In this document: positions 8,518-30,760 of the stretch, one piece after another
Layout: the number at the start of each line of letters is the position of its first letter
How positions within the stretch are numbered: the first letter of the stretch is position 1
Source: Kineococcus radiotolerans SRS30216 = ATCC BAA-149
GTDB lineage: Bacteria; Actinomycetota; Actinomycetes; Actinomycetales; Kineococcaceae
Direction: 5' to 3'
Length of the DNA stretch: 32,000 nucleotides
Assembly: GCF_000017305.1 (NCBI RefSeq)
Contig: NC_009806.1
Location: forward strand, 150,001 to 182,000
Translations under genes and position numbers: made by a program
The notes under the pieces: generated by a model
Database searches by the model: none
What the model saw: only the letters and a program-made list of their open reading frames with translations
What the model was told of the DNA's origin: nothing

Positions 8518-8568
8518 GCGTGTCGTTGTCGCTGCGCACGACACGCCCCGAAAACCTAGCACACTAGG
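8518..8568 (-). promoter_or_regulatory. Island promoter/leader cassette, copy B (variant)
   Basis: Minus strand CCTAGTGTGCTAGGTTTT (TGC-TAGGTT extended -10). It is followed by a perfect 9-bp hairpin GCGTGTCGT / GCGCAGCGACA / ACGACACGC at 8546-8518. Confidence 0.6.
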
Positions 8569-8651
8569 AGTTGGTGCAGGCGGGAGCGTGGCGTCGCCGT
8601 GGGGCCGGTTGACCCCTGATGGTGGTGCGGTGAACGGGTGGTCGGTGATCT

Positions 8652-9002
8652 TCAGATCTCGTTGCGTCGGGAGAAGGTGGCGCAGGCGACGAGCTGGGAG
8701 GACTCGCTGCCGGGGATGAAGCGGATGTCGTAGAAGCAGCCGCTGAGCTCGTCTAGCGCGGTCAGGGGAGGGGCTCCGCAGGACCTGGTGACCAAGTCGG
8801 TCATGTCCTTGGCGTTGACCCGCAGCTTCACGAACGGGGTCCTTGGTGTCAGTGCTTCACCTACGGGACACAGGTAGGCCAGGAAGAAGGAGCCTGGCTC
8901 CGAGGCCAGGCCCGTGCGCGCAGCCGCCCCGCCAGCGGATGTCGAGGTGCTCGCGGGCGGGTTAGCGCGCTCGCCGCGGCCGCGGCGGTCGAAGAGGCTC
9001 AT
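8652..9002 (-). CDS. Hypothetical protein (116 aa), translationally coupled to whiB
   Basis: The ATG overlaps the whiB stop (ATGA at 8999-9002). Sequence MSLFDRRGRG...FFLAYLCPVGE...CFYDIRFIPGSESSQLVACATFSRRNEI. The upstream part of the 235-aa track ORF is whiB shadow. Confidence 0.6.
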   Translation of the reverse strand: MSLFDRRGRGERANPPASTSTSAGGAAARTGLASEPGSFFLAYLCPVGEALTPRTPFVKLRVNAKDMTDLVTRSCGAPPLTALDELSGCFYDIRFIPGSESSQLVACATFSRRNEI

Positions 9003-9289
9003 CGTGTGCCCTCCCGCCGGTCCTTCTTCAGGCGCCGGCGCTCGCGCTCGGACAGCCCGCCCCAGATGCCGAAGCGCTCGTCGTGGGCCAGGGCGTACTC
9101 GAGGCACTGCTGGCGCACGTCGCAGGACTGGCACACCGCGCGCGCCGTCTTCGATGGTCCGCCCTTCTCGGGGAAGAAGACTTCGGGGTCGGTCTGGGCG
9201 CACAGTCCTGCCTCGCGCCAGGACGACGACGTGCCGTCGTCCGGCTCGGGGGTGGGGGTCTCGAAGCGGTGAAGTGTGTCGAGGGTCAT
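8999..9289 (-). CDS. whiB: WhiB-family (Wbl) Fe-S transcriptional regulator
   Basis: Four Cys in the C-x(n)-C-x2-C-x5-C pattern (CAQTDPEVFFPE...CQSCDVRQQC), then the GIWGGLSERERRRL turn and a basic tail. AGGAGG lies upstream of the ATG at 9289. Confidence 0.9.
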   Translation of the reverse strand: MTLDTLHRFETPTPEPDDGTSSSWREAGLCAQTDPEVFFPEKGGPSKTARAVCQSCDVRQQCLEYALAHDERFGIWGGLSERERRRLKKDRREGTR

Positions 9290-9320
9290 GACGTTGTCCT
9301 CCTGCTGGTTGGGTGGTGGC

Positions 9321-9370
9321 CGGTTCCGGTCGCTGTCGGTGCCGAGCAACTAGAACCATAGCACGCTAGG
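9321..9370 (-). promoter_or_regulatory. Island promoter/leader cassette, copy A
   Basis: Minus strand CCTAGCGTGCTATGGTTC, then hairpin CGGCACCG / ACAGCGAC / CGGAACCG, then CAACCAG and AGGAGG before the whiB ATG. Confidence 0.65.
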
Positions 9371-9632
9371 TCTGTCGTCGCAGCAATCCTCCTTGTGTCC
9401 TGTCTTACCCAGGTAGGTGCCGCTGACGGCACTGCTGTGACAGGTGCAGCACCCAATCTCGGCATTGGGTCGGCGGTGCACGGTCATCGGCCGGGTTGTC
9501 CGGTAGGGCCCTGTCGCTTCTACCGGCCAGACTGGCCAGCCCTCGCCTCTGCCGTGGTGGCCCGTCGTGAACGCCCCGTGTGCGCTGTCCACAGGCGGAT
9601 CGCGCCGTCACTCGAGGCGAAGGTCATCCGCG

Positions 9633-9875
9633 ATGATCGGCCGCGTGCAGAAGATGGCCGTCGAACAGTGGTGGACTCAGGCCGACCCCGTCACTCGGAT
9701 CCGTGCGCTGCGACTCGAGGCAGCGGACTTGCTGCCCGAAGACATGCAGGTCGACCTAGCGATGGCCGGAGTCACGGTGAGCGCCATCGGTTGCGGATGG
9801 GACCAGCAGCCTGAGGGGTACTGGGTGCCTCAAGTCCTGTGGGACTTCTTGCGAGCCCGTGACCACGACGACTGA
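9633..9875 (+). CDS. Hypothetical small protein (80 aa)
   Basis: ORF with reasonable G/C bias at third codon positions. Start uncertain (9633 or 9654). One of few plus-strand genes in the island. Confidence 0.5.
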   Translation: MIGRVQKMAVEQWWTQADPVTRIRALRLEAADLLPEDMQVDLAMAGVTVSAIGCGWDQQPEGYWVPQVLWDFLRARDHDD

Positions 9876-9968
9876 CCGGCCACTGGAGGGAAACCGCCGC
9901 GGGCTTCCCGACGGTCCGCGAAGACGTCAGGAAGTCCGCTTCATCCTCGATGGGAGAACCTGAGCAAC

Positions 9969-11018
9969 TCACTCGTTCGGGGCCGGAAGCGGCGGCTGGG
10001 AAGGAGGGACGGTTGTGAGAGCCGCCTTGGCCTCGCACCGGTCTGGTTCGTTCTCGGCCCACACCTGGTCGAAGTCGGGTCCGACCCAGGCCGTCACACA
10101 GGTCCGAGAACGAAGCATCAGCGCTGCTGTCGCGTAGCGCTCATCTGATGCCACCTGGATGCCGGCGGCGGACGGCGACGCGGTCGAGCTCAACGCCTGA
10201 CGGAGCCGCTCCTGAGCTGTCCACGACGCAGAAGCGTTGGCCCGCAATGCATCCTGCAAAGCGGCGACCTGCAGCTGCCCAACCCCCGACCACGGCCAGC
10301 CGATCTGATCGATCTGGCGCAGCGATGCAGCCTTGAGGTCAGAGCTGAGCTGCTCACCGGTGTTCAGATCAACATCGCTCGACCGGGCTGCACAATCACG
10401 AGCCCAGGCCGCGTTCCGCTTCTCCTTGCTCATGAAGGAGGCGGGGGAGAACAGGCCGTCGTCCAGGCTGGGCTTCGTGTCGGGATCCAAGGTGCTGACG
10501 CTGACGGTGCGGGCACCGTCGATCCCCTTCGTCGTAGCGGGAGTCACGGTCAAGAGCCGGCAGACGTGCACCGTCTCGGTGGGTTGCCACGAGTGCAGGG
10601 TGAGGCGCTGCCACCACTTGACGTCGTGATCGTTGGCCACCGTGAAGTCCAGCACCGCGCGAAATCCCCGCGCTGCAGCTGGAGCATCCGCGCCGCTGTA
10701 CCCCGGGGCCACGACTTCGGACAGCGACACGCTTGCGCCAGACGCGGCGAAGGTGGCCTGCTGATCCGCACCGCCCGCCCCGGCGACGACGCGTGCCGCG
10801 GCTGCCCCCGCCACCTCATCGAACCTGCTGGTCGCAGGCTCATGGAAGGACGCAGTCGGACCGGCGATGAAGGCGACGCCCGCGAGGAAGAGACCCACGG
10901 CTGCGGCGCCGGCCGCGACAAGAGCAGCGTCGCCCGAGACGCTAAGTCTGCTGCCTCGCTTCCGGTTCTGGGGGGCGGACTTGCTGAGGTCGGTTCGTTC
11001 CACGGGCTGATCGATCAC
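9969..11018 (-). CDS. Membrane-anchored, probably extracytoplasmic hypothetical protein
   Basis: N-terminal TM helix AALVAAGAAAVGLFLAGVAFIAG followed by a 300-aa soluble domain. The GTG start overlaps the upstream stop (GTGA at 11015-11018). Confidence 0.7.
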   Translation of the reverse strand: MIDQPVERTDLSKSAPQNRKRGSRLSVSGDAALVAAGAAAVGLFLAGVAFIAGPTASFHEPATSRFDEVAGAAAARVVAGAGGADQQATFAASGASVSLSEVVAPGYSGADAPAAARGFRAVLDFTVANDHDVKWWQRLTLHSWQPTETVHVCRLLTVTPATTKGIDGARTVSVSTLDPDTKPSLDDGLFSPASFMSKEKRNAAWARDCAARSSDVDLNTGEQLSSDLKAASLRQIDQIGWPWSGVGQLQVAALQDALRANASASWTAQERLRQALSSTASPSAAGIQVASDERYATAALMLRSRTCVTAWVGPDFDQVWAENEPDRCEAKAALTTVPPSQPPLPAPNE

Positions 11019-11365
11019 AAGTCTTCGGGTCCTTCCGTGCTCTTGACGTCACGACTCAGGTAGCGGTGGAGCATCTGCCGATCCAGTTCGCGGATCGGCT
11101 TGGTCACCGCCGCCGTTTCACGGGGGAGGTTGACGGCGTCGGGCCATCCGGTCAGGCTCACCGGCGCAGCGCCTCCAGGGCCACCGCCGGCCGCCGTGAC
11201 CGCCGGTTCTCTGAGGTGCCGGTCTTGATCGGTGCACTCGCTGCCGCTGGGAGCATGGTGGGTGAGGATGCGGTGGCCCATCGAGGACGCCTCGTCTCGT
11301 CTGCAGGGGGTGGTATCGATGGAAGGTGTCGGTGCAGGTGGCGGCGAGCGGTGCGCGCCGCTCAC
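11015..11365 (-). CDS. Hypothetical protein (116 aa)
   Basis: Start/stop overlaps at both ends (GTGA at 11362-11365 and at 11015-11018). Moderate G/C bias at third codon positions. Confidence 0.45.
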   Translation of the reverse strand: MSGAHRSPPPAPTPSIDTTPCRRDEASSMGHRILTHHAPSGSECTDQDRHLREPAVTAAGGGPGGAAPVSLTGWPDAVNLPRETAAVTKPIRELDRQMLHRYLSRDVKSTEGPEDL

Positions 11366-12588
11366 GTCGAGCGCGGTTCCTTGGCTGCCGCCTGAGCGGC
11401 GGACACCCCGTCGTCGTAATCGTCGATGTGGATCCCGCCCGTGGGGTCATAGCGGCCGCCGACGTGGTCGGGGTCGTAAGCCATGAAGACCACGTCGGGG
11501 CGCCCGCCGTTGTAGGCGGAGTAGGTCTCGTAGCTCCACCCGTCGGGGGCGTACTCGTCGTTCCACCGCAGCCTCGCAGTCGGGACGAAGCCGGCAGCGG
11601 AGTAGACGCGAGGGAGGACGGTGTCGAAGCAGTCCAGGCGTCGGCCCCCGGCGGCGACGGCGGTGGCGAGCATGGACTCAGCGCACCCGCGGTGCTCTCC
11701 GTCGGCGCGGGAGAACACCGAGACGATCTCGTCGCCCTTCAAGGCCACGCCGGAGCGGCCGTCGTCGGTGACCAGCAGGCGCATCTGGGCGTACTCCTGC
11801 TCGGAGTAGACGTAGACCGACGCCGCGTAGGGAGTGCTCGACGCCAGTGCCGCGATCGAGTCGCGGTAGGCGCCGGCGTCCGCTGGCGCGAGCTCGTGCA
11901 GGGTCGGAGTGGACTTGCCCTGGGCGCGCAGCCGTGCGGCGAGGTCTTCAGGCGGTTGGTGCACCGCGATGGGCTGCACCGATCGCCCGTCGATCAGAAG
12001 CCGATCAGGAGCGCCTCCTCGATCGCCCCGTCCGACCACTGCGCCTCGATCGTCTCCCGCTGCGCCTGGGGCAGCTCCGGGCGCCAGCCCTGCCGCCGCA
12101 GGAACGCCTCGCGCTCCTCCGGCGTCAGGCGACTGGCCGCGGGACGGTGCTGCGGGCTGGTGGGTTCGGTCACGGTCGTTTCCCTGCTCTCTGGTGTCGG
12201 TCGTGCTGCTGGCTGTGCTGCTGGTCGTGCCGCTGGGCGACTCGGTGCTGGTGGTCAGGGTGGAGGAAGACTCCGGCTGGGTCACCTCGGCGGCAGCAGC
12301 TCGCGCTGCAGCGCGTCGCTGGCGACCCTCCGCCAGGCGCTGCCGCAGGTGCTCCCGCTCTGCCGCTGTTCCCTCGACGTCGCCGTGCTCCAGTCGCTGC
12401 TGCAGGTCACGCTGCCCGGCGGGGGTGGAGTCGAAGTCCCGTTGGGCGTCCCGGTGACGCTGCAGCGCCTGCTGCCGTGACGGACCGTCGACACCGGCCT
12501 CCTCCAGCTCCTGTAGGCGCGCAGCAGCGGCCTCCAGGCGGTGCCGCCCATGGGCTGAGCAGCGCGGCCCAGGCTTCTTCTGACACAT
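11362..12588 (-). CDS. Long ORF with a C-terminal GNAT-like acetyltransferase domain. It is probably a composite of up to three coding segments (see finding).
   Basis: The ATG at 12588 (MCQKKPGPRCSAHG) has GAGGAAGG upstream. The C-terminal 205 aa (from the GTG at 11979) show a GNAT-like pattern (LLVTDDGRSGVALKGDEIVSVF...GCAESMLATAVAAGGRRLDCFDTVLPRVYSAAGFV). Between 12173 and 11994 the codon bias favours a different frame. Confidence 0.55.
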   Translation of the reverse strand: MCQKKPGPRCSAHGRHRLEAAAARLQELEEAGVDGPSRQQALQRHRDAQRDFDSTPAGQRDLQQRLEHGDVEGTAAEREHLRQRLAEGRQRRAAARAAAAEVTQPESSSTLTTSTESPSGTTSSTASSTTDTREQGNDRDRTHQPAAPSRGQSPDAGGARGVPAAAGLAPGAAPGAAGDDRGAVVGRGDRGGAPDRLLIDGRSVQPIAVHQPPEDLAARLRAQGKSTPTLHELAPADAGAYRDSIAALASSTPYAASVYVYSEQEYAQMRLLVTDDGRSGVALKGDEIVSVFSRADGEHRGCAESMLATAVAAGGRRLDCFDTVLPRVYSAAGFVPTARLRWNDEYAPDGWSYETYSAYNGGRPDVVFMAYDPDHVGGRYDPTGGIHIDDYDDGVSAAQAAAKEPRST

Positions 12589-13336: not shown

Positions 13337-13642
13337 TCAGCGGTCCTTAGGGAGAAGGACGGTGGTGACCGAACGGTCGGCCTCGGTGATGACCCAGAAG
13401 GTCTGGTCGTCGATGTCGTAGGCGGAGAACAGGAGCTGACCGCTGTGGACGGCCTGCTCGTTCATGGCGGCGTACTCCGCGCTGATGCTGCCCCAGTCTC
13501 CGCTGGCGTGGCGGGTGAGCAGTCCAGCGATGTCGGTGGGGCCGTGCTGGCGGGTGCGGAGCCAGCGGCGGACGCTGGCCGTCATCACCAGGTGTCCGGT
13601 CTGCACTCGCGGGGTCGGGGTGCTGGGGGCGGTGGCGTCCAC
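13337..13642 (-). CDS. Small conserved protein of a type seen on conjugative plasmids/ICEs (101 aa)
   Basis: RHASGDWGSISAEYAAMNEQAVHSGQLLFSAYDIDDQTFWVITEADRSVTTVLLPKD matches, from memory, the GDWG...N..A...G.R..SAY....IWIITEADRS.TT.LLP family. AGGAGG lies upstream of the GTG. Confidence 0.75.
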   Translation of the reverse strand: MDATAPSTPTPRVQTGHLVMTASVRRWLRTRQHGPTDIAGLLTRHASGDWGSISAEYAAMNEQAVHSGQLLFSAYDIDDQTFWVITEADRSVTTVLLPKDR

Positions 13643-13672
13643 GGTGTCCTCCTGGTTGATGGTGCCGGGTGA

Positions 13673-13718
13673 CGATCGGGTCGCTGTCCGATCGACCTGT
13701 AAACCATAGCACGCTAGG
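13673..13718 (-). promoter_or_regulatory. Island promoter/leader cassette, copy C
   Basis: Minus strand CCTAGCGTGCTATGGTTT, then a perfect 7-bp hairpin CGATCGG / ACAGCGAC / CCGATCG, then CAACCAGGAGG. Confidence 0.65.
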
Positions 13719-14450: not shown

Positions 14451-14864
14451 TCAGTAGGCCGCTTGCGTCACGTCGGCGCCGAGGGCGCCGGCCTGCTCGT
14501 AGATGTCGCTCAGGCTGACCGTGCGTTCCTCGCCGCGGCTGTTGATCGCCACCGTATAGCCGATGAAGTAGCGCAGGTTCTCGGCACTGACCTCCATGAA
14601 GATCGCCACCGATCCTTCGGCCAGCCACTGCGAGACGTGGGCCGGCACTTCCAGGTCGATCACTTCGTCGGAGCCCTCGACGGCGATGCTGCTCGGCCAG
14701 CTCCCGTCGGGGCTGTTGCTCACCAGACCCGCCCGCAGGGGGTTGTCGTCGGTGGTGATGACCTCCATGCCGGTGGCCGCGGCGAAGTCGGCGAGCGCGC
14801 TGCGAGCGGCCTCATCACGCAGGAGGAAGTAGTTGCTGCGTGCCTTGGCGTGGTAGTCGGCCAT
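14451..14864 (-). CDS. Hypothetical protein (137 aa)
   Basis: MADYHAKARSNYFLLRDEAARSALADFAAATGMEV... First gene after promoter copy D. The upstream part of the track ORF is the translated leader. Confidence 0.7.
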   Translation of the reverse strand: MADYHAKARSNYFLLRDEAARSALADFAAATGMEVITTDDNPLRAGLVSNSPDGSWPSSIAVEGSDEVIDLEVPAHVSQWLAEGSVAIFMEVSAENLRYFIGYTVAINSRGEERTVSLSDIYEQAGALGADVTQAAY

Positions 14865-14901
14865 GAGGTGCCGGTCCCTTCGGGGGTTCTGGTTGGAGTG
14901 G

Positions 14902-14950
14902 GGTGCTGGAGGGTCGCTGTCCCCCAACACCTCAAACAATAGCACACTAT
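14902..14950 (-). promoter_or_regulatory. Island promoter/leader cassette, copy D
   Basis: Minus strand ATAGTGTGCTATTGTTT, then an 11-bp hairpin GGTGTTGGGGG / ACAGCGAC / CCTCCAGCACC, then CAACCAG. Confidence 0.65.
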
Positions 14951-15848: not shown

Positions 15849-16688
15849 TCAGTGGTCGTCGCGGTCCGCGTCGACGTACAGGTCGACGGTCAGGCGGGCC
15901 GGGCCGCGGCCGGACTCGCGTGCCCACTCCTCGACCATGCTGGCGGCGACTCCTTCGGCCTGCTCGATCGTCGTCGCGCCAGCCTCGGCCCACGTCATCG
16001 CGGCGACGTACGCACCGGAGTCGATCGGAAGGGTGTGCTCGGGGTCGTAGATGGCGATGACGCGGCGGTCCAGGTCGGGAAGTGTCCTGCCGTGCAGATC
16101 GTCCGCGACGGCGGGCTCGTCGTCCTCGCCGTCGTCCTCCTCTTCGTCGTCGTTTTCGTCCTCGTCCCAGCCCTCGGGCTCCGCACCCAGTCGCATGGCC
16201 TCAGGACTCACGCCGTCTTCGGCGGCAGCGAACTGGATGCCGTCATGGTGGGAGAGCGCGTCGATCAGGTCGCTTGCGGCATCGCCCCGCACGACGGTGA
16301 CGACGGTGATGTAGGCGGGTTCTCCATCCTGCGTGGCGTCCGGGTCATGCACGTCGTCCCCACATCCGTCCCCGGCCGTGGCATCCACCCAGGCGCCCTG
16401 CAGGTCCTCGTGGACGGTTGTGCCGCACCGCCCGCACGGCTTCTCGGGGGCCTGGCGGATCGTGACGGTCTCGGTGGAGGGGAGGGGCTCGCCGTTCTCG
16501 CGGAGCACGATCGTCCAGGTGTCGTCCCCGTCGTCGGTGATGGTCACCTCGTCGTAGGTGGTGGGCGGGTAGACCTCGGCGCGCATCTCACTCCACGCGG
16601 TGAGGGCGGCCTCGCGGGTGGGGTGCTGCTCTTCGTGGAGCGTCGCGTTGAACGTGTCCGCGTCCGAGACGGTGAGCGTGTGGGTCAT
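15849..16688 (-). CDS. Highly acidic hypothetical protein (279 aa) with a poly-D/E tract and a Cys cluster
   Basis: EPEGWDEDENDDEEEDDGEDDEPAVADD tract and many further D/E residues. CGRCG...GDGCGDDVHDP. First gene after promoter copy E, with GGAGG upstream of the ATG. Confidence 0.75.
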   Translation of the reverse strand: MTHTLTVSDADTFNATLHEEQHPTREAALTAWSEMRAEVYPPTTYDEVTITDDGDDTWTIVLRENGEPLPSTETVTIRQAPEKPCGRCGTTVHEDLQGAWVDATAGDGCGDDVHDPDATQDGEPAYITVVTVVRGDAASDLIDALSHHDGIQFAAAEDGVSPEAMRLGAEPEGWDEDENDDEEEDDGEDDEPAVADDLHGRTLPDLDRRVIAIYDPEHTLPIDSGAYVAAMTWAEAGATTIEQAEGVAASMVEEWARESGRGPARLTVDLYVDADRDDH

Positions 16689-16705: not shown

Positions 16706-16749
16706 TGGGGGGTCGCTGTCCTCCAACGCAACAAACCATAGCACACTAG
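16706..16749 (-). promoter_or_regulatory. Island promoter/leader cassette, copy E
   Basis: Minus strand CTAGTGTGCTATGGTTT, then GCGTTGGAGG / ACAGCGAC / CCCCCATCC, then CGGAGG and the ATG. Confidence 0.65.
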
Positions 16750-21976: not shown

Positions 21977-22288
21977 TCAGAGGGAGAAGACGCGGTTGAC
22001 CAAGCCGGGGTCGTCGCAGGCGGTCACCCTTGCCTCATAGGTCGCGTCGTCGCAGCGGCCGGTGCCGGTGAAGGGGTAGATGTGCTCCATGACCCACTCG
22101 TCGTACTCGGCGGCCCTCTCGTCGAGGGTGGGCGGCGCGGGGATCGTCTCGTCGTCGACGGTGGTGACGACGACCTCGTCGGCGTAGGCGTTCTCGACGC
22201 GCAGGCTCACGGTGATCGTCCGAGGCGGCAGGACGCTCCGCGCGGTGCCGGTGGATGCCTGCTCGGCGGGGGTGGTCGGGGTGGTCAT
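21977..22288 (-). CDS. Hypothetical protein (103 aa)
   Basis: First gene after promoter copy F, with CGGAGGAACC immediately before the ATG. Confidence 0.7.
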   Translation of the reverse strand: MTTPTTPAEQASTGTARSVLPPRTITVSLRVENAYADEVVVTTVDDETIPAPPTLDERAAEYDEWVMEHIYPFTGTGRCDDATYEARVTACDDPGLVNRVFSL

Positions 22289-22297: not shown

Positions 22298-22347
22298 GGT
22301 AGATGGGGGGTCGCTGTCCTCCAACACCACAAACCATAGCACACTAG
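22298..22347 (-). promoter_or_regulatory. Island promoter/leader cassette, copy F
   Basis: Minus strand CTAGTGTGCTATGGTTT, then GGTGTTGGAGG / ACAGCGAC / CCCCCATCTACC. The core overlaps the palindrome CACACTA-G-TAGTGTG at 22340-22354. Confidence 0.7.
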
Positions 22348-22434: not shown

Positions 22435-23061
22435 TCAGCGGCCGTCGCGCAGGATCTGGCGCTCGAAGACCATGTGCAGGTCGGCCTCGGTGTTCGCGGC
22501 CGTCTCGGTGGCCTCGGCGGCGTCCGCCGTGACCGGCTGCTCCTCGTCAGCTTCACCGGCTTCCTCGGCGGCGGGGTGGTCCGCACACCACCCGTCGTCG
22601 TCCAACGTCCCCGGCGCCACCTGCTCGAAGCACCCCTGGCACTCCGGCTCCGTCGCGTGGAGCTCGGGCAGCTCACGACCCGTAGCGAGCCTGAACCGCT
22701 CCCGGTAGGACCAGGCTCGATCCCCGTCGGCCACGCTCGGGCGGTTGGAGACCGTCAGGATGCTCGCCACGCTGCCCAGGAAGTCCGCGCCGCCGTCCCA
22801 GGTCGGGGTGGTCCCCAGCAGGGCCGCGAGGTGGTCCACGGTGAGGCGGTCGGCCAGGAGGGCGGCGTGCTCGTCGGCGGGGACGGTCACCACACCGCCG
22901 GCGACGCGGGCCGCGACGGCGTGCGTCGCGTCGTCCACCACTCGGTCAGCGTCGGCCACGTCGGCGGGCAGCGCACCCACGTCGGCCAGGGCGGCGCGGA
23001 TCGCGTCGTTCAGCGCGGCGAGTTGGTCGGAGGTGAAGACGGGGGAGGTGGTCGTGGTCAC
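22435..23061 (-). CDS. Hypothetical acidic protein (208 aa)
   Basis: Good codon bias. CQGC...WCADH Cys/His cluster and an acidic tail. Confidence 0.65.
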   Translation of the reverse strand: MTTTTSPVFTSDQLAALNDAIRAALADVGALPADVADADRVVDDATHAVAARVAGGVVTVPADEHAALLADRLTVDHLAALLGTTPTWDGGADFLGSVASILTVSNRPSVADGDRAWSYRERFRLATGRELPELHATEPECQGCFEQVAPGTLDDDGWCADHPAAEEAGEADEEQPVTADAAEATETAANTEADLHMVFERQILRDGR

Positions 23062-23840: not shown

Positions 23841-24602
23841 TCAGGCGGCGCGGAGCTTGCCGGCCTTCTTGCTCGCCTTCGCCTGAGCGGCCGTCAGCAG
23901 CTCACGCGCATCTGTCCCCTGCTTCGCGGCCAGGGCCAGCGCGGCGCGGCCAGCGAATGCGGACCATCCGACGGCGTAGGGGTGGTCCTCGCCGTACCAG
24001 GCCAGGTCGAACAGGACTTCGGCGAGCTTGCGCTGCGCGGCGACCGCGGTCTTGACCGGGCGGCCCTCGTCATCCAGCAGCGGGGAACCGTCGGCTGCGG
24101 TGATGGTTTTCTCGGCGGCCTTGGCGCGCTTCGCGGCCAGTCCGGCGGCGCGTTCAGCCTGCTCGGCGCGGTCGCGCAGCTCGTCGGCGGTGAACACGGT
24201 GCGGGGGGTCACCGGGGCGCCGGGGAAGCAGACGGTGCAGGCGTCCTCCCCGATCACGTTGACCACGGCGTCGTGGTCGAGGCCGGATAGGTCCGCCAGG
24301 ACGGCGAACCGGGTGGTGACGTAGCAGGTGGAGCACGAGGTGGAGGCGTGGACGTGACCCTTGCCGTTGGTGATCGCCAGGTAGGTGCGGGTCCAGCCGC
24401 TGCGGCGGTCCCATTCGCCGCGGTACGGGGCCTCGGCGGCGGTGGCGACTGCGACTGCGGCCTCGCGGCGGGCGATGACTGCCTCGGTGCCGTGGATGCT
24501 CTGGCGGGCGACGGACAGGCCGGTCTCGGCGTTCTGAGTAGCGGCCATGAGGGGGAACCATGCCGCGTCGATCTCGGCGGGGGTGGCGGTGGTGAGGTTC
24601 AT
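23841..24602 (-). CDS. Hypothetical protein (253 aa) with a GHVH...SCSTC...ACTVCFP Cys/His motif
   Basis: The TNGKGHVHASTSCSTCYVTTRF...DACTVCFPGAPV pattern is one I recall from actinomycete plasmid/phage hypothetical proteins. First gene after copy G. Confidence 0.7.
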   Translation of the reverse strand: MNLTTATPAEIDAAWFPLMAATQNAETGLSVARQSIHGTEAVIARREAAVAVATAAEAPYRGEWDRRSGWTRTYLAITNGKGHVHASTSCSTCYVTTRFAVLADLSGLDHDAVVNVIGEDACTVCFPGAPVTPRTVFTADELRDRAEQAERAAGLAAKRAKAAEKTITAADGSPLLDDEGRPVKTAVAAQRKLAEVLFDLAWYGEDHPYAVGWSAFAGRAALALAAKQGTDARELLTAAQAKASKKAGKLRAA

Positions 24603-24626
24603 GGTGGTCCTCCGTGGTGCGGCCCG

Positions 24627-24666
24627 GGGTGACGTCCTCCAACACCACAAACCATAGCACACTAGG
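24627..24666 (-). promoter_or_regulatory. Island promoter/leader cassette, copy G (degenerate hairpin loop)
   Basis: Minus strand CCTAGTGTGCTATGGTTTGTGGTGTTGGAGGAC is identical to copy F up to the loop. There ACAGCGAC is replaced by ACGTCAC. Confidence 0.6.
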
Positions 24667-26102: not shown

Positions 26103-26747
26103 TCAGGCCGGCACGCCGCTGGCGGCGCGCACCCGACGGGCCAGCTCGATCAGCTCGTGCTGGCGCGCGGACAGTTCGGCGCCGTCGGCGCAGTCGGCCA
26201 GAGTGCGGATGATGCCCTCGACGTCGCAGGGGGTCAGGTCGACGGGCGTGGCCTGCTCGGCGGCCACCGCCTCCAGGCGTGCGGCCTGAGCGGCGTACCG
26301 GGCCGAGGGCAGTTCCCCGCGTCGCATGGACTCGTTCTCGGCTTCGAGCGTCACGTACCGGGCGGCCACCTCGCGCAGGCGGGCAGCTTCGGTGGCGGGC
26401 TCGTCCGTCGTGATGGTGCCGCCGTACGGGGCGTACCGCTCGTCCCACAGGTTGTAGCTGTAGGTGGACCAGGTGACCGTTGTGTGCTCGGCCAGGTCGG
26501 GGCGGTGCTCGGCCGAGGAGGCGGTGAAGACACGGTTGACGCGGTAGGTCTCGGTCAGGACGGCGTCGATGCGGGCACGGACGTAGTAGGCGCGGGGGGA
26601 GTCGGCGGGAACGGGGTGGCCGTTGATGGTGACGACCTCGACCTCGTAGGTGCCGGGCAGGATCGTGTACTTGTCCCACCAGGACGCGGTGGCGAGGGTG
26701 CGGTCCACGTACTCCGTCGCGGCGGGGATGGTCAGTGTGAGCGTCAT
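26103..26747 (-). CDS. Hypothetical protein (214 aa)
   Basis: CAGGAGGATCCCG lies before the ATG at 26747. First gene after copy H. Confidence 0.7.
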   Translation of the reverse strand: MTLTLTIPAATEYVDRTLATASWWDKYTILPGTYEVEVVTINGHPVPADSPRAYYVRARIDAVLTETYRVNRVFTASSAEHRPDLAEHTTVTWSTYSYNLWDERYAPYGGTITTDEPATEAARLREVAARYVTLEAENESMRRGELPSARYAAQAARLEAVAAEQATPVDLTPCDVEGIIRTLADCADGAELSARQHELIELARRVRAASGVPA

Positions 26748-26790: not shown

Positions 26791-26808
26791 AAACCATAGC
26801 ACACTAGG
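26791..26808 (-). promoter_or_regulatory. Island promoter core, copy H (no canonical leader hairpin)
   Basis: Minus strand CCTAGTGTGCTATGGTTT. The leader is divergent. Confidence 0.55.
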
Positions 26809-27293: not shown

Positions 27294-27680
27294 CTACAGC
27301 TCCCCGGCCAGCTGCGGCCGGTACTGGTAGGCCCCGCAGGCGGCGAGGCTCTCGAAGTCCTCACCGACGGCGTCGGCCAGGTGGTGCAGGCTGGCCAGGA
27401 GGTCGGTCAGGGCCGTCCCGAGGTCGACGTCGGCTCCGGTCTGCTCCCAGAATGCCCGGAGCGCTACCGCTGCCGCTCCGGCGCGCCGGGTGTTGTCGTG
27501 GGCGACGTCCTCGGCGCTCGTGCCGTTGCGGAAGCGTCCGTCGCCGTCGGCGAGGGTGAGCGCGGCGGTGAGGTCCGTCAGGTTCGCCTCGACGGTGAGG
27601 GGCAGGCTGGCGGGGGCGATGACGTCGGGGGTGACGTCAGGGGTGACGTGGGCAGCGGGAGTGGAAGTGGTGGTGGACAT
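27294..27680 (-). CDS. Hypothetical protein (128 aa)
   Basis: CCGGAGGTACCGGCC lies before the ATG at 27680. First gene after copy I. Confidence 0.7.
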   Translation of the reverse strand: MSTTTSTPAAHVTPDVTPDVIAPASLPLTVEANLTDLTAALTLADGDGRFRNGTSAEDVAHDNTRRAGAAAVALRAFWEQTGADVDLGTALTDLLASLHHLADAVGEDFESLAACGAYQYRPQLAGEL

Positions 27681-27705
27681 GGCCGGTACCTCCGGTGCTG
27701 GTTGG

Positions 27706-27761
27706 TCTCGTGGTGTCGACGGGGTCGCTGTCCCGCCAACACGAGAACCATAGCACACTAG
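27706..27761 (-). promoter_or_regulatory. Island promoter/leader cassette, copy I
   Basis: Minus strand CTAGTGTGCTATGGTTC, then an extended hairpin TCTCGTGTTGGCGGG / ACAGCGAC / CCCGTCGACACCACGAGA, then CAACCAG. Confidence 0.7.
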
Positions 27762-27837: not shown

Positions 27838-28185
27838 TCACCGGCGCGAGATCGCCCGCACAGCGTCGGCCCGTCCCGCCTCAGTCGGCGCGCCCCAGTC
27901 GTAGGCCGGCAGAGCGGGCATGGTCTCCCCGTCGGCGTCGAAGTTGATCCAGTGGATGTCCTCGCCCAGGGAGCGGGCGTAACGGCTGACGGCGAGGAGG
28001 TTGGGGAAGCCCGCGGCCCGCATCGCCTCGTCGTGCTCCTCGACGTCGTCGTGCTGCACGTTCACGAAGAGCCCGTACTCGTGGGCGATGACGCGCGGGC
28101 CGTCGAGCTGGAAGACGGACTCAGCGGTGTCGACTTCGCGCTGGGTGAGGTGGCAGGTGGACAGGTCCAGGTACTTCGCGATCAC
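27838..28185 (-). CDS. Hypothetical protein (115 aa)
   Basis: MIAKYLDLSTCHLTQREVD...HEYGLFVNV...IHWINFDADGETMPALPAYDW. GGAGGAG lies upstream of the GTG. Loosely reminiscent of a mobile-element family (DUF5983-like), unverified. Confidence 0.65.
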   Translation of the reverse strand: MIAKYLDLSTCHLTQREVDTAESVFQLDGPRVIAHEYGLFVNVQHDDVEEHDEAMRAAGFPNLLAVSRYARSLGEDIHWINFDADGETMPALPAYDWGAPTEAGRADAVRAISRR

Positions 28186-28326
28186 GGGTGACTCCTCCGG
28201 CGAGGGCTGGGCAGGTGGTATGAGGGCTGGCGCACCCGTGGGGGCCCACAGGGCGCGGTGGGTCGAGGCAGGGAGGGGCGCCGCGTCGGGGCCGGCGCCC
28301 GCCTCCGGCGCTCCGGCAGGGGGGGC

Positions 28327-28632
28327 TCAGGACGTGCCCATCTCGGGGTACAGGCGGCGCACCTGGGCGTCGGCCCATGTGCGCCGGTCCTCGGCGTCGT
28401 CGGCCTCGTCGAGGGCGTAGGCCCAGTGCTCGGTGCCACGGGTCCGAAGCCCCGCGCGCACCGCGAGCTCGGCTCCGGCGCGGCTAATCTGGGCCTCAGG
28501 GCGCTCACCGTAGTCGGTGGCCGCGTCGTAGGACTCAGCGGCCAGGATGTTGACCAGGTCCAGGCGGTCCAGGGCTACCCGCACCTGAACCGTGACCATG
28601 TGGCGCCCATTGCGGCGCAGGGTGGGCTGCAT
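28327..28632 (-). CDS. Hypothetical protein (101 aa)
   Basis: GAGGAAGC lies before the ATG. Good codon bias. Confidence 0.6.
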   Translation of the reverse strand: MQPTLRRNGRHMVTVQVRVALDRLDLVNILAAESYDAATDYGERPEAQISRAGAELAVRAGLRTRGTEHWAYALDEADDAEDRRTWADAQVRRLYPEMGTS

Positions 28633-28708
28633 GCTTCCTCGTCTGGTCGGGGGCTGGTCCGCTAGCTGCTGGCGGTGTAGTGGACGGTCGAGAGCGTCGA
28701 GGTTGGGC

Positions 28709-29005
28709 TCAGCCGACCACCTCCCGCACGGGCACGTAGACGGCCAGGCCCCCGACGTGCAGGCTGGAGAAGGTGCCCTGTGCCATGGGCACCAGGCCGT
28801 CGTATCCCTGGGGGTACTGGGCCTTCAGCGCGAACGCCTCAGCCTCGGTGTAGCCGGGGAAAAGCACCCCGCCTGCCTTCTCGACCTTGCGGGCTTCTGC
28901 CGCGGTGACGGCCTGCGACTCGAGGCCGGCCTCGAAGGTGGTGTCGCCCTTGACGCCATAGGCGCTGTGCTGAGCGACGGTGTACTGGTCCTTGGCACTG
29001 CTCAT
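28709..29005 (-). CDS. Hypothetical protein (98 aa)
   Basis: ORF with good codon bias and GAGAGGA upstream. Confidence 0.6.
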   Translation of the reverse strand: MSSAKDQYTVAQHSAYGVKGDTTFEAGLESQAVTAAEARKVEKAGGVLFPGYTEAEAFALKAQYPQGYDGLVPMAQGTFSSLHVGGLAVYVPVREVVG

Positions 29006-29101
29006 GTGCTGCTGTCCTCTCGGGTGGTTGCGTGGGTTCGTTCTGCTGCCGCTGGCGGTCGGCGCCGGTGCGACCAGCTCGCGGTCTGCGGGCGGGCCGT
29101 G

Positions 29102-29341
29102 TCAGAGCCGGGTGAGCGAGCTGGTCGGGATGATCGTGACGTCGCCGTCGGCGCGGATGACGCGGGTGTGCGGGGTGAGGTTGGGGGTGCGCCGGGTGCA
29201 GCGGCGGGTGTGCTGGTGCCGCGAGAGGTAGGTGCTGTCGCTGGCGCAGCCGACGTACTCGACCCGGTCCGGGACGATGAACTTCTGGTCGGTGGCGATG
29301 GTGACCGTCTCGCCGGTGGTGGTCCAGGTGGCCTGTTCCAT
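29102..29341 (-). CDS. Hypothetical protein (79 aa)
   Basis: CACGGAGGCACCCG lies before the ATG. First gene after copy J. Confidence 0.6.
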   Translation of the reverse strand: MEQATWTTTGETVTIATDQKFIVPDRVEYVGCASDSTYLSRHQHTRRCTRRTPNLTPHTRVIRADGDVTIIPTSSLTRL

Positions 29342-29379
29342 CGGGTGCCTCCGTGTCGCGGTGCCTTCAACTTGTGGCT

Positions 29380-29396
29380 AAACCATAGCACACTAT
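29380..29396 (-). promoter_or_regulatory. Island promoter core, copy J (no canonical leader hairpin)
   Basis: Minus strand ATAGTGTGCTATGGTTT. It shares the upstream flank GTACATAGTGTGC with copy D. Confidence 0.55.
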
Positions 29397-29466
29397 GTAC
29401 GCGAGAGGTACACGGATCCCGTGACGTCGCATCCCAGAAGCCGCAGCGCACGGAGACGGCGCCGGA

Positions 29467-30051
29467 CTACAGCTCCAGAGCGGTGACACGAGCTCGGCGT
29501 CGACCGCGGTGATCGCGGTCGACGACCACCCGCAGCGCCATTGCCGTGAACCGAGCGCCTGTCCGCAGGATGACGGCCGCCTCGTAGACACCGGCCCCGA
29601 CGTGGTGCAGGTGCACGCTCTTGACGACCGGCGTCACCAGTCCCGCCATGGGCTGAGCGACCCCAGGAGCGCACAGCCGGCGCTCGCGGGCGGCCAGGAG
29701 CTGCTGACGCCGCGAGACCGTCTGGTAGACCTCCGGACTGCACCAGCGCAGGAGCTGCTGGCGGGGGCGGCGGCTGGCGAAGACCCCCAGGTAGACGATC
29801 ATCCATCGCCGCACCCAGTGCTCGACCTCTTCCATGTCCTGAGACGCCACGCCGGCCCCCGGTGGACGAGCAGGCGCCACGTCCATCGAGAGCACGAACT
29901 GCCCCTCGCACTGGGAAGCCTCGCCGAGCGGAGACCTCTCCTCACGAGGTGCTCTGCGGTGGACGTCGCTGAAGACGACCTGTCGGCTCTCCTCCCGCTG
30001 CTTGTCCTGCTGCCTGACGTACTGGCGAGCTGTGCTCTGGATCGTGTCCAC
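29467..30051 (-). CDS. Rv3235-like (DUF6459-type) actinobacterial protein
   Basis: The C-terminus VHLHHVGAGVYEAAVILRTGARFTAMALRVVVDRDHRGRRRARVTALEL matches the pattern I recall for the Rv3235 family. GGGAG lies upstream of the GTG. Confidence 0.65.
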   Translation of the reverse strand: MDTIQSTARQYVRQQDKQREESRQVVFSDVHRRAPREERSPLGEASQCEGQFVLSMDVAPARPPGAGVASQDMEEVEHWVRRWMIVYLGVFASRRPRQQLLRWCSPEVYQTVSRRQQLLAARERRLCAPGVAQPMAGLVTPVVKSVHLHHVGAGVYEAAVILRTGARFTAMALRVVVDRDHRGRRRARVTALEL

Positions 30052-30193
30052 GAGCTACTCCCTGGATCGGTTGGATCGGTGCCGAAGCCGGCTGTCTGGG
30101 GCGCGGCCCACGGCCGCGGAGCGGGCTGGAGAGCCACGCAGAGCCGTGAGGCCGGAAGCACGCGCCTCCTGGCCCCACGAGGGAGCGAGAAGG

Positions 30194-30682
30194 TCAGACC
30201 GCGGCGTGCGCGTCGCGCCGCTGGAAGGACCAGGTAGCGGCCTCGTCGTAGCCGGGGAGCCGGTTGATGGCGGCCCGCTCGATGGCAGCAACCCAGGTCG
30301 CCGCTCGGCTCGAGGCCCAGCCCGGGTGCTCGCAGCTCTGGTAGACGTAGCCGCGCGCGGCCTTCAGGATGGCGACGGTGACGTCAGCGCCCAGGCCGGC
30401 GAGCTCTGCGGGCCGCACCGGCTGCCAGCGGTAGGAGAAGACGAGCGCCGCGTACTCGGCGCGCTCGGAGTCCTCCATCGAGGAGTAGCGGTGCTGGACG
30501 CTGAGCACGTTCTCGGCCAGCAACTCCTGGCCCAGTGCATCGGCGCTGATGACGCGGGAGTCGAGGCACACAGTGTCGATGGGGTTCGTCCCCGGCGCGT
30601 GGTGGTAGGCGATGACCTGCCACTGGCGAGCGAAGGTCACCAGCAGGTCGATGTGGTCGTTCGACTGCACGTAGGCGCTCAC
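30194..30682 (-). CDS. Hypothetical protein (162 aa)
   Basis: AGAGGAGC lies upstream of the GTG at 30682. First gene after copy K. Confidence 0.7.
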   Translation of the reverse strand: MSAYVQSNDHIDLLVTFARQWQVIAYHHAPGTNPIDTVCLDSRVISADALGQELLAENVLSVQHRYSSMEDSERAEYAALVFSYRWQPVRPAELAGLGADVTVAILKAARGYVYQSCEHPGWASSRAATWVAAIERAAINRLPGYDEAATWSFQRRDAHAAV

Positions 30683-30709
30683 GGTGGTGCTCCTCTATCG
30701 GTACCGGTT

Positions 30710-30760
30710 GTGTGCTGGCCGGGTCGCTGTCCGTCCAACACTCAAACCATAGCACACTAG
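30710..30760 (-). promoter_or_regulatory. Island promoter/leader cassette, copy K
   Basis: Minus strand CTAGTGTGCTATGGTTT, then GTGTTGGACGG / ACAGCGAC / CCGGCCAGCACAC. Confidence 0.7.

What the first reader, a model, noticed from the sequence alone, without database searches (positions are those of the whole stretch)
8518..30741. 5'-leader stem-loop with invariant loop (A)CAGCGAC and covarying stems: candidate new cis-regulatory RNA (nut-like)
In 8 of 11 cassettes the sequence starting about 5 nt after the -10 hexamer folds into a hairpin. The loop is constant but the stem sequences differ while still pairing. Minus strand 5'-3', pairs counted by eye:
- A 9344-9321: CGGCACCG/ACAGCGAC/CGGAACCG
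- B 8546-8518: GCGTGTCGT/GCGCAGCGACA/ACGACACGC (9 bp perfect)
- C 13694-13673: CGATCGG/ACAGCGAC/CCGATCG (7 bp perfect)
- D 14931-14902: GGTGTTGGGGG/ACAGCGAC/CCTCCAGCACC (11 bp including G-U)
- E 16725-16706: TGGAGG/ACAGCGAC/CCCCCA
- F 22328-22298: GGTGTTGGAGG/ACAGCGAC/CCCCCATCTACC
- I 27746-27706: TCTCGTGTTGGCGGG/ACAGCGAC/CCCGTCGACACCACGAGA (8+7 bp)
- K 30741-30710: GTGTTGGACGG/ACAGCGAC/CCGGCCAGCACAC
The stem next to the loop reads GGNGG:CCNCC in D, E and F, GGCGGG:CCCGUC in I, CGG:CCG in C and K, CCG:CGG in A and CGU:ACG in B. One position is A.C in E and F but G.U in D, which are isosteric. Conservation of the loop together with compensatory stem changes is the classic signature of a structured element read by a sequence-specific factor. 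A promoter-proximal hairpin repeated at the head of every operon parallels lambda boxB/nut or put-type antitermination sites. Alternatives are a 5' stabiliser, a translational-repressor site, a processing site, or an ssDNA hairpin if this DNA is transferred single-stranded. Copies G, H and J have lost the loop (G reads ACGTCAC), giving natural mutants. I do not recognise this motif as a known Rfam family.
Basis: partly seen in the sequence, partly recalled or inferred. Interest (0 to 1): 0.9.

Follow-up and report, generated by a model that had tools for sequence, protein, structure and literature searches.

The report
Repeated promoter-leader hairpin on Kineococcus plasmid
Most of the small operons in one region of a Kineococcus radiotolerans linear plasmid start with the same strong promoter followed by a short stem-loop whose tip sequence is as conserved as the promoter. 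It looks like a new shared control element for plasmid accessory genes, but it is known from only a handful of related plasmids and what reads it is unknown.

Summary
The window is K. radiotolerans plasmid pKRAD01. Eleven minus-strand copies of CTAGTGTGCTATGGTT (an extended -10 promoter, TGTGc-TATGGT) each precede a ribosome-binding site and a gene. Eight of them are followed 13-17 nt later by the loop (A/G)CAGCGAC flanked by complementary arms.

With relatives, 24 of 27 such promoters carry the hairpin. This includes a lineage with a different promoter and different stems but the same AGCGA loop. A covariance model finds the element only behind these promoters. Each hairpin's own arms pair better than permuted arms (p=5e-5). 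Orthologues show three clean compensatory changes. Loop identity between orthologues is 95%, arms 77-78%, upstream DNA 40%.

The stem-loop is therefore real and selected, and its loop is read as sequence. Rfam has nothing like it.

The nut-like antitermination reading is not supported. There is no boxA, no intrinsic-terminator-like sites within the operons in a consensus scan, and the units are short, each with its own promoter.

Whether the hairpin acts as RNA or as DNA could not be resolved. My best guess is a 5'-leader RNA operator and stabiliser giving coordinate control of plasmid accessory genes. These genes are small, mostly acidic, and of the kind found in phages and plasmids. The main rival is a DNA operator for the island's helix-turn-helix protein.

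The parts
30745..30760 (-). Promoter block K (CTAGTGTGCTATGGTT; extended -10 TGTGc-TATGGT)
30710..30741 (-). Hairpin K, GTGTTGG-a-CGG / ACAGCGAC (loop 30723-30730) / CCG-g-CCAGCAC; first gene 30194-30682
   Evidence: 37.1 bits
29381..29396 (-). Promoter block J (ATAGTGTGCTATGGTT). Its leader has no hairpin, only a GCGAC remnant. First gene 29102-29341
27746..27761 (-). Promoter block I
27706..27746 (-). Hairpin I, 11-bp core (27712-27743) plus 3 outer pairs; loop 27724-27731; CAACCAG at 27698-27704; first gene 27294-27680
   Evidence: (36.6 bits)
26792..26807 (-). Promoter block H. The leader lacks the loop and hairpin. First gene 26103-26747
24650..24665 (-). Promoter block G
24614..24648 (-). 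Degenerate hairpin G. The GGTGTTGGAGG arm is kept but the loop is mutated to ACGTCAC. First gene 23841-24602
22332..22347 (-). Promoter block F
22298..22328 (-). Hairpin F (weak stem, GGAGG:CCCCC with A.C); loop 22310-22317; first gene 21977-22288
   Evidence: 34.5 bits
16734..16749 (-). Promoter block E
16706..16725 (-). Hairpin E (weak, TGGAGG/CCCCCA); loop 16712-16719; first gene 15849-16688 (net charge -54)
   Evidence: (31.5 bits)
14935..14950 (-). Promoter block D (ATAGTGTGCTATTGTT)
14902..14931 (-). Hairpin D, 11 bp including 2 G.U; loop 14913-14920; CAACCAG 14889-14895; first gene 14451-14864
   Evidence: (36.5 bits)
13702..13717 (-). Promoter block C (CTAGCGTGCTATGGTT)
13673..13694 (-). 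Hairpin C, 7 bp perfect with arms unlike K/I/D; loop 13680-13687; CAACCAG 13652-13658; first gene 13337-13642
9354..9369 (-). Promoter block A
9321..9344 (-). Hairpin A, 3+3 bp around a 2x2 internal loop; loop 9329-9336; CAACCAG 9305-9311; first gene 8999-9289 (WhiB)
   Evidence: 33.4 bits
8552..8567 (-). Promoter block B (CTAGTGTGCTAGGTTT)
8518..8546 (-). Hairpin B, 9 bp perfect; 11-nt loop GCGCAGCGACA (core 8528-8535); CAACCAG 8504-8510; first gene 7803-8489 (coiled coil plus C-terminal HTH), then the RNase_T-type exonuclease 7195-7806
   Evidence: (20.7 bits)

Best explanation
The element is a genuine, selected stem-loop. It forms part of a module of about 75 nt repeated at the head of the accessory-gene operons of the K. 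radiotolerans linear plasmid pKRAD01 and its relatives.

The module runs in this order:
- a strong extended -10 promoter with no -35 box (TGTGc-TATGGT);
- the stem-loop, right at or within a few nucleotides of the transcript's 5' end;
- a C/A-rich single-stranded stretch that often contains CAACCAG;
- a strong Shine-Dalgarno site and the first gene.

I infer that the hairpin acts on the mRNA. The stem would protect the 5' end. The invariant apical loop A-C-A-G-C-G-A-C would be the recognition site (an RNA operator) for one dedicated trans-acting factor, probably encoded by the element. All these operons would then be switched or throttled together, for example a burst of expression followed by shut-down after the plasmid enters a new cell.

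Shown here: the module, its restriction to these promoters, selection on pairing, and stronger selection on the loop sequence.

Inferred: that the active form is RNA, that a protein reads the loop, and the direction of regulation.
For: - Specificity. A covariance model built on the hairpin scores all 24 copies at 18.9-41 bits. It finds nothing else significant in 114 kb of the same loci. It also finds nothing in 209 kb of other actinobacterial plasmid and phage loci that carry homologous genes; the best score there is 16.6 bits. The hairpin therefore exists only behind these promoters.
- Pairing is selected. Own versus permuted arms gives -13.4 against -8.0 kcal/mol, p=5e-5. There are about seven unrelated arm classes, including 9-bp and 7-bp perfect stems. 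Three compensatory changes separate orthologues: B T:A to C:G, C A:T to G:C, and I G:C to C:G.
- The loop is read as sequence. Orthologue identity is 95% in the loop and 96% in the promoter, against 77-78% in the arms and 40% upstream. Lineage L125 uses another promoter (TTGCGC-17-TAGTAT) and other stems but keeps A(C/A)AGCGA at the tip.
- A G/U-only 5' arm (GGUGUUGG) lets 3'-arm transitions stay paired as wobbles. Orthologues of I and K differ in exactly that way.
- The geometry fits a 5'-terminal hairpin. In L125 the stem starts 9-10 nt after the -10 hexamer.
- The hairpin is autonomous. Blocking the 5' arm in silico does not change Shine-Dalgarno accessibility, and no U-tract follows the stem. 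It is therefore neither a terminator nor an SD-sequestering switch.
- The context fits a coordinately controlled mobile-element gene set. The genes are small, mostly acidic proteins with PHROG, plasmid and phage homologues.
Against: - No transcription start site or expression data are available.
- With TATGGT as the -10 hexamer, several stems begin only 3-5 nt after it. Their outer pairs would then lie upstream of a normal start site.
- Sense and antisense strands fold equally well (p=0.67). In-register G.U pairs (about 14) barely outnumber A.C mismatches (about 9).
- The loop sits at a nearly fixed distance from the promoter whatever the stem length. This would also suit a DNA site.
- No RNA-binding protein was identified. 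The only obvious regulators are a WhiB protein and an HTH protein.
- Four E/F-type copies have poor stems.
- The fixed-register covariation count is not much better than a one-column slide.
- The data come from only about 5 related replicons.
Confidence: 0.4

Rival explanations
1. DNA operator. The asymmetric core GGACAGCGACC, about +8 to +18 from the start site, is a double-stranded DNA binding site for an element-encoded repressor. The best candidate is the 228-aa coiled-coil/HTH protein, which is itself expressed from cassette B. This would give autoregulated, transient 'zygotic' expression of all cassettes, as with Reg576 on p576, ArdK/CUP on IncN plasmids, or mycobacteriophage stoperators. 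The flanking complementarity would be secondary, or would serve a second, RNA-level role as with Aca2.
For: - The loop is at a near-fixed distance from the -10 hexamer regardless of stem length.
- The motif has one orientation relative to transcription and occurs only at promoters.
- There is no strand bias in stability.
- The HTH protein and WhiB are the conserved core of the island, and both carry the element on their own promoters in all three lineages.
- Precedents exist for shared operators on establishment-gene promoters (PMC6294495; PMC6289460) and for monomeric repressors that read asymmetric sites in transcribed regions (PMC9283540).
Against: - A duplex operator does not explain why the arms are complementary, why they differ between copies, or why they change by compensatory substitution.
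- Only 7-8 nt are conserved.
- The HTH protein model is of low confidence and has no fold match.
Confidence: 0.25
2. Plain 5'-terminal stabiliser. The hairpin only protects the mRNA 5' end from 5'-end-dependent RNases, in the manner of the ompA or T7 phi10 leaders. The loop is conserved for another reason, such as the initially transcribed sequence or gene conversion between copies. No specific factor is involved.
For: - The hairpin lies at the extreme 5' end of the predicted transcript.
- It is part of a high-expression module with a strong promoter, an unstructured C/A-rich spacer and a strong SD.
- It is independent of SD accessibility.
Against: - Loop identity (95%) equals that of the promoter and exceeds that of the arms.
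- The loop is kept in L125, where the promoter and stems differ. Gene conversion would homogenise the arms as well.
Confidence: 0.15
3. Processive antitermination site, nut- or put-like. The nascent hairpin recruits a factor that makes RNA polymerase resistant to terminators.
For: It is a promoter-proximal hairpin with a conserved loop, repeated on a mobile element.
Against: - No boxA-like sequence in 0 of 27 leaders.
- No N-, Q- or NusG-like protein was detected.
- There are 11 promoters in 22 kb driving units of 2-5 genes.
- The consensus scan found no terminator-like site on the coding strand within the operons.
- There is no Rfam match.
Confidence: 0.07
4. Single-stranded DNA hairpin used during transfer or replication of the linear plasmid, such as a priming site or an Frpo-like single-strand promoter.
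For: - Homologues of the K and D proteins sit in a co-oriented array next to a MobF relaxase on M. gilvum pMSPYR101. There each gene is preceded by a long hairpin-forming repeat.
- All cassettes share one orientation.
- There is no RNA-specific strand bias.
Against: - The stem is 7-14 bp and does not contain the -10 element, so it cannot rebuild a duplex promoter.
- The complementarity between CAACCAG and TGGTT is only 4-5 bp. The one lineage where both changed is not compensatory.
- No relaxase or oriT lies in the window.
Confidence: 0.06

Closest known systems
Shared promoter-operator modules of plasmid establishment and leading-region genes: Reg576 operators on Bacillus p576 (PMC6294495) and CUP elements/ArdK on IncN pKM101 (PMC6289460, citing Delver & Belogurov 1997)
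   Same: Several separate promoters in front of small plasmid accessory or anti-restriction-type genes carry the same conserved element. The candidate regulator is encoded inside the cluster, behind one of the same promoters.
   Different: Those elements are duplex DNA operators (repeated heptamers, or a 13-nt consensus) with no hairpin requirement. Here the conserved core is the tip of a stem-loop whose arms vary and co-vary. The sequences are unrelated, and the host is an actinomycete linear plasmid.
Lambda nut (boxA+boxB) and HK022 put
   Same: A promoter-proximal RNA hairpin whose loop is the specific determinant, on a mobile element.
   Different: There is no boxA, the loop is 8 nt rather than a GNRA-like pentaloop, there are about 8 sites rather than 2, the operons are short with their own promoters, and no N-like protein is present.
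Cluster A mycobacteriophage stoperators (PMC9283540)
   Same: A short asymmetric conserved site, many copies per replicon, always in one orientation relative to transcription, in an actinobacterial mobile element.
   Different: Stoperators are 13-14 bp duplex sites scattered through intergenic regions, without flanking complementary arms. Here the sites occur only directly after a promoter and are embedded in a hairpin.
Cluster K mycobacteriophage start-associated sequences (SAS/ESAS; from my own knowledge of Pope et al. 2011)
   Same: Conserved leader motifs repeated in front of many genes of an actinobacterial mobile element. An inverted repeat lies upstream of a conserved ribosome-binding-region motif, comparable to the hairpin plus CAACCAG-SD arrangement here.
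   Different: ESAS arms are the conserved part and the spacer varies, which is the opposite of this element. SAS overlaps the SD. The sequences are unrelated.
Loop-specific RNA operators with variable stems, such as the iron-responsive element and the MS2 or boxB operators
   Same: An invariant apical loop on stems that differ between mRNAs, placed near the 5' end and defining a regulon.
   Different: The analogy is by architecture only. No binding protein is known here, and RNA-level action is unproven.
Frpo/ssi single-strand promoters of enterobacterial leading regions
   Same: Repeated structured elements in front of co-oriented early plasmid genes.
   Different: Frpo is a hairpin of about 300 nt that contains the -35 and -10 boxes. 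This hairpin is 7-14 bp and lies downstream of the -10.

Membership tests
Any Rfam family | Match to a curated covariance model | tested here: not met
   Permissive cmscan of the whole window gave only one hit, Scr3920 at E=0.31 and 26 bits against a gathering score of 88, elsewhere in the window.
Lambda-type nut site | boxA (CGCUCUUA-like) next to the hairpin | tested here: not met
   0 of 27 leaders have a boxA-like sequence at up to 1 mismatch.
Lambda-type nut site | boxB: 5-bp stem with a GNRA-like pentaloop | tested here: not met
   The loop is 8 nt (ACAGCGAC), or 11 nt in B; stems are 6-14 bp.
Lambda-type nut site | Cognate N-, Q- or NusG-like antiterminator encoded nearby | tested here: not met
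   No such domain was found in about 32 island proteins with Pfam, PHROGs or NCBIfam. Most of the proteins are acidic. Distant homologues could have been missed.
Lambda-type nut site | Downstream terminators that must be read through | tested here: inconclusive
   The consensus scan found no terminator-like site on the coding strand within the operons. However, actinobacterial terminators often lack U-tracts.
Frpo/ssi single-strand promoter | Long imperfect hairpin carrying the -35 and -10 boxes in its stem | tested here: not met
   The hairpin is downstream of the -10 hexamer. Consensus folding of the whole cassette gives no promoter-containing stem. The gaps upstream of the promoters are 2-200 nt for nine of the ten cassettes with an upstream gene, and 599 nt for A.
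Frpo/ssi single-strand promoter | Location in a leading region next to oriT or a relaxase | tested here: not met
   No relaxase or T4SS gene lies in the window. The neighbours are a Tad pilus locus and a replication-initiator-like HTH_36 protein. The rest of pKRAD01 was not examined.
Stoperator-type or shared DNA operator | Short conserved site in one orientation at many transcription units | tested here: met
   8 of 11 window promoters and 24 of 27 overall carry the site, always on the sense strand.
Stoperator-type or shared DNA operator | Binding by an element-encoded repressor | not testable with these tools
   The candidate HTH protein (7803-8489) gave a model at pLDDT 67 with no fold match. 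EMSA is needed.
Integron attC-type cassette site | Integrase nearby, promoterless cassettes, and conserved R/L boxes in the arms | tested here: not met
   There is no integrase in the window, each unit has its own promoter, and the arms are the variable part.
Structured cis-regulatory RNA (generic) | Statistically supported covariation | tested here: inconclusive
   Paired cells are 64.8% against 49% in shuffles (0/500), and the covariation score is 0.318 against 0.166. A one-column slide still gives 57% and 0.285, and pairs with double changes are not enriched. Arm permutation gives p=5e-5 and there are 3 orthologous compensatory changes.
Structured cis-regulatory RNA (generic) | The element lies within the transcript | not testable with these tools
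   The TSS is unknown. Two overlapping TANNNT hexamers (TAGTGT and TATGGT) make +1 uncertain by about 8 nt.

The most novel reading that the evidence does not exclude
The loop is the operator of a dedicated, plasmid-encoded loop-reading factor. That factor would bind the 5' hairpin of every accessory operon and so create a post-transcriptional regulon, IRE-like in architecture, that times plasmid establishment and anti-defence gene expression in actinomycetes. A variant is an Aca2-like HTH protein that reads the same motif both as DNA and as RNA. No such regulon is known for actinobacterial plasmids.
Probability: 0.3. Interest if true: 0.7.

Novelty: new variant of a known kind. Interest (0 to 1): 0.5.

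Why it matters
If the loop is a true operator, it defines a compact, portable control module: a strong promoter without a -35 box, a 5' hairpin and an enhancer-like spacer. This module governs a whole set of uncharacterised and mostly acidic plasmid proteins, which are possible anti-defence or establishment functions, in a radiation-resistant actinomycete.

It would add an actinobacterial, hairpin-based counterpart to the CUP/ArdK and Reg576 regulons. It would also give a simple handle for finding the regulator and the conditions under which these genes fire.

The known distribution is narrow: pKRAD01 plus a few metagenomic relatives. This limits its general importance.

Tried and rejected
- Scans of viral contigs with the promoter found 0 hits. 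Scans with GTTGGNNGGACAGCGACC found 10 chance hits inside coding regions.
- The metagenome scan (promoter plus loop) found only 4 stretches, all from one JGI study.
- blastn of a cassette against PLSDB plasmids and INPHARED phages gave no match. Megablast of the island gave only a WhiB fragment.
- The idea that CAACCAG pairs with the promoter's TGGTT to rebuild a duplex promoter in ssDNA, or forms MITE-like terminal repeats, was rejected. The pairing is only 4-5 bp, no consensus helix appears, and the one double change is not compensatory.
- The SD-sequestration / anti-anti-SD switch idea was rejected. Blocking the 5' arm in silico leaves SD accessibility unchanged, 0.54 against 0.53, p=0.69.
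- The intrinsic terminator or attenuator idea was rejected because there is no U-tract.
- Sense versus antisense stability, used as an RNA-versus-DNA discriminator, showed no bias.
- The HTH protein gave an AF2 model at pLDDT 67, with no PDB fold or sequence match.
- The C, K and D proteins have no PDB sequence relatives, and NCBIfam gave nothing for 10 island proteins.
- More distant homologues of the K protein and the exonuclease lie in phages, plasmids and a conjugative element that lack the hairpin.
- Literature searches for the motif strings and for K. radiotolerans transcriptomes found nothing relevant.
- An attempt to extend beyond the window's right end returned only short contigs.

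Full report
**What the window is**

The window has 64-75% G+C. Four of its proteins are residue-for-residue identical to proteins of Kineococcus radiotolerans SRS30216, encoded on a 182,572-bp contig and in one case labelled 'plasmid' (ABS06118, ABS06121, ABS06154). That length is that of the linear plasmid pKRAD01, CP000751 (PMC2587704). Two Logan contigs reproduce 11-14 kb of the window with no mismatches.

**Checking the observation**

- The block CTAGYGTGCTANGKTT occurs 11 times, all on the minus strand, against 0.04 expected.
- It reads as an extended -10 promoter (TGTG-c-TATGGT) with no recognisable -35 box. This reading comes from the sequence.
- Each copy is followed 39-70 nt later by a GGAGG-type ribosome-binding site and the start of a minus-strand gene with high third-position G+C.
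- ACAGCGAC occurs 8 times against 2.2 expected, 7 of them in these leaders. Copy B reads GCAGCGAC.
- Copies G, H and J lack the loop.
- Folded singly, the hairpin is the minimum-energy structure in K, I, D, C and B, weakly so in A and F, and not in E. In this G+C-rich DNA the z-scores are modest, from -2.5 to +0.7.
The 5' arm GTGTTGG is itself conserved in K, I, D, E, F and G, so only A, B and C are independent stems within the window.

**The surroundings**

The eleven promoters head units of 2-5 co-oriented genes, 0.6-3.7 kb each, between 7,195 and 30,760.

- Pfam recognises only DUF6459, DUF5983, DUF6884, a DprA-type winged helix, a WhiB protein and an RNase_T/DnaQ-type exonuclease.
- PHROGs adds several phage families of unknown function and an 'HTH DNA-binding' match for the 228-aa product of cassette B.
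- NCBIfam and PDB sequence searches add nothing.
- Most products are acidic. One has a net charge of -54 and another -26.
- Homologues of the K and D proteins lie on Mycobacterium, Rhodococcus, Gordonia, Kocuria and Cellulosimicrobium plasmids, and more distant ones in phages.
- Next to the island are a replication-initiator-like HTH_36 protein and a Tad/Flp pilus locus. This arrangement is shared by the relatives L134 and L135.

This is therefore a block of mobile-element accessory genes of unknown function. It resembles establishment or anti-defence gene sets in style, but that is an inference.

**Relatives**

Protein searches and one metagenome DNA scan recovered only a few related replicons:

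- a 105-kb JGI contig (L123/L134; proteins 68-78% identical);
- L130 and L132 from the same study;
- a 56-kb ENA contig (L135; 86% identical);
- L125 (K-protein 61% identical).

Together with the window they hold 27 distinct promoter cassettes, of which 24 carry the hairpin. L125 is the most telling case. Its promoter is different (cTTGCGc-17 nt-TAGTAT preceded by TGT) and so are its stems (CGGGGaCGG/CCGCCCCG; GGGGaCAC/GTGCCCC). Its loop is still A(C/A)AGCGA.

**Is the hairpin real?**

Several lines of evidence agree.

- A covariance model of the 32-nt element scores all 24 copies at 18.9-41 bits. It finds nothing else at E below 0.03 in 114 kb of these loci. It finds nothing above 16.6 bits in 209 kb of other G+C-rich actinobacterial plasmid, phage and conjugative-element loci that carry homologous genes.
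- Pairing each 5' arm with its own 3' arm gives -13.4 kcal/mol on average, against -8.0 for permuted partners. This gives p=5e-5 for 24 copies and p=5e-4 for the window's eight (an earlier version of the test is). The test controls for the G-rich and C-rich composition of the two arms.
- Orthologous cassettes differ by three clean compensatory substitutions. In B, T:A becomes C:G (window against L134). In C, A:T becomes G:C, and in I, G:C becomes C:G (both window against L123). Several one-sided changes stay paired as G.U.
- Across ten orthologous pairs identity is 40% upstream of the promoter, 96% in the promoter, 77-78% in each arm and 95% in the loop.

The evidence is not uniformly strong. 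In a fixed register 64.8% of cells pair against 49% in shuffles (0 of 500 reach it). Sliding the partner one column still gives 57%, and double-sided changes per pair are not enriched. One orthologue (L135 B) has two uncompensated mismatches, and the E/F-type copies carry a conserved A.C.

I conclude that the stem-loop is under selection and that its tip is under stronger, sequence-specific selection.

**A second motif**

CAACCAG lies 34-44 nt after the promoter, between the hairpin and the ribosome-binding site. Five of the eight CAACCAG copies in the window are in these leaders, against 3 copies expected in the whole window. The motif is also present in most relatives.

**RNA or DNA?**

This could not be settled.

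In favour of RNA:
- a transcript is single-stranded by default;
- the G/U-only arm GGUGUUGG tolerates transitions in its partner as wobbles, and this is the kind of change seen between orthologues;
- in L125 the stem begins 9-10 nt after the -10 hexamer, which is where a 5'-terminal hairpin should start.

Against RNA, or neutral:
- sense and antisense strands fold equally well (10 against 14 copies, p=0.67);
- with TATGGT as the -10 hexamer several stems begin only 3-5 nt downstream of it;
- the block also contains a second TANNNT hexamer (TAGTGT) 8 nt upstream, so +1 is uncertain;
- the loop keeps a near-constant distance from the promoter whatever the stem length, although simple inheritance without indels also explains that.

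The hairpin is not a terminator, because no U-tract follows it. It is not an SD-masking switch either, because blocking the 5' arm in silico leaves SD accessibility unchanged. It does not rebuild a duplex promoter in single-stranded DNA.

**Mechanism**

My best-supported reading has a confidence of about 0.4. The module is a 5'-leader RNA operator and stabiliser. The stem caps the 5' end of the mRNA. The invariant loop is read by one trans-acting factor, so that all units respond together.

The main rival has a confidence of about 0.25. In it the core is a duplex DNA operator for the island's own HTH protein, giving autoregulated burst-then-repress expression. Precedents are Reg576 on p576 (PMC6294495), ArdK/CUP on IncN plasmids (PMC6289460) and stoperators (PMC9283540). 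That model does not explain the complementary, co-varying arms. A dual DNA and RNA reader would reconcile the two.

A factor-free stabiliser has a confidence of about 0.15. It fails to explain the loop conservation, especially across L125.

It lacks boxA (0 of 27 leaders), any N-, Q- or NusG-like protein, and a reason to exist, because every short unit has its own promoter.

An ssDNA role has a confidence of about 0.06. It rests only on analogy with the M. gilvum plasmid array.

The candidate HTH protein gave a low-confidence model, a long helical hairpin plus a small C-terminal HTH, with no structural match.

**Novelty**

There is no Rfam family. The motif strings do not appear in the searched literature. 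PLSDB plasmids, INPHARED phages and IMG/VR contain no copy.

Repeated promoter-operator modules on plasmids are known, and so are loop-specific RNA operators. A hairpin with an invariant loop behind most promoters of an actinomycete plasmid's accessory island is a new variant of those kinds.

The known distribution is about five related replicons. With no functional data, I keep the interest score moderate at 0.5.

Noticed in passing
window 8504-8510, 9305-9311, 13652-13658, 14889-14895, 27698-27704 (minus strand): A second conserved leader motif, CAACCAG, lies 34-44 nt after the promoter, between the hairpin and the Shine-Dalgarno site. Five of the 8 CAACCAG copies in the window are in these leaders, and the motif is also present in most related cassettes. 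Its function is unknown; it may be part of a C/A-rich translational enhancer or standby site.
   Followed up: partly
L133 (M. gilvum Spyr1 plasmid pMSPYR101, NC_014811.1 148705-173133), e.g. L133:12463-12843: A homologue of the K protein sits in a co-oriented array of small genes next to a MobF relaxase. Each gene is preceded by a 300-380-nt repeated intergenic element (9 copies) that folds as a long imperfect hairpin. Three copies of one IS110-family transposase gene lie interspersed in the array. This may be an Frpo- or CUP-like leading-region element in mycobacterial plasmids.
   Followed up: partly
L125:2264-2338, 5069-5143, 7695-7762: A more distant lineage drives the homologous genes from a different, canonical-looking promoter (TTGCGC, 17 nt, TAGTAT with an upstream TGT). 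It keeps a leader hairpin with the loop A(C/A)AGCGA on unrelated stems.
   Followed up: yes
window promoter blocks, e.g. 30745-30760; L134:9148-9162: The conserved block contains two overlapping TANNNT hexamers 8 nt apart (TAGTGT and TATGGT). In one relative the second reads TATGGC while the first is intact. The true -10 hexamer, and therefore the transcription start, is uncertain by about 8 nt.
   Followed up: partly
window 9633-9875 (+): A small 80-aa ORF is transcribed divergently from the WhiB cassette and is conserved in L134 and L135. It has no recognisable domain and lies in the 599-nt gap upstream of promoter A. It could be a regulator.
   Followed up: partly
window 15849-16688 and 22435-23061 (minus strand): Two products are very acidic, with net charges of -54 and -26, and the first contains a long D/E run. 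This is reminiscent of DNA-mimic anti-restriction proteins, but no family match was found.
   Followed up: no
window 24-896, 1856-3178; L134:14500-20687; L135:13072-20687: The island is flanked in all three lineages by a replication-initiator-like HTH_36 protein and a Tad/Flp pilus locus (prepilin peptidase, a protein of about 1100 aa, TadE proteins and T2SSF). This is an unusual cargo for a linear plasmid.
   Followed up: no
window 11888-11991 (+): A weak Rfam hit to Streptomyces sRNA Scr3920 (26 bits against a gathering score of 88, E=0.31) lies inside a minus-strand ORF. I treated it as noise.
   Followed up: no
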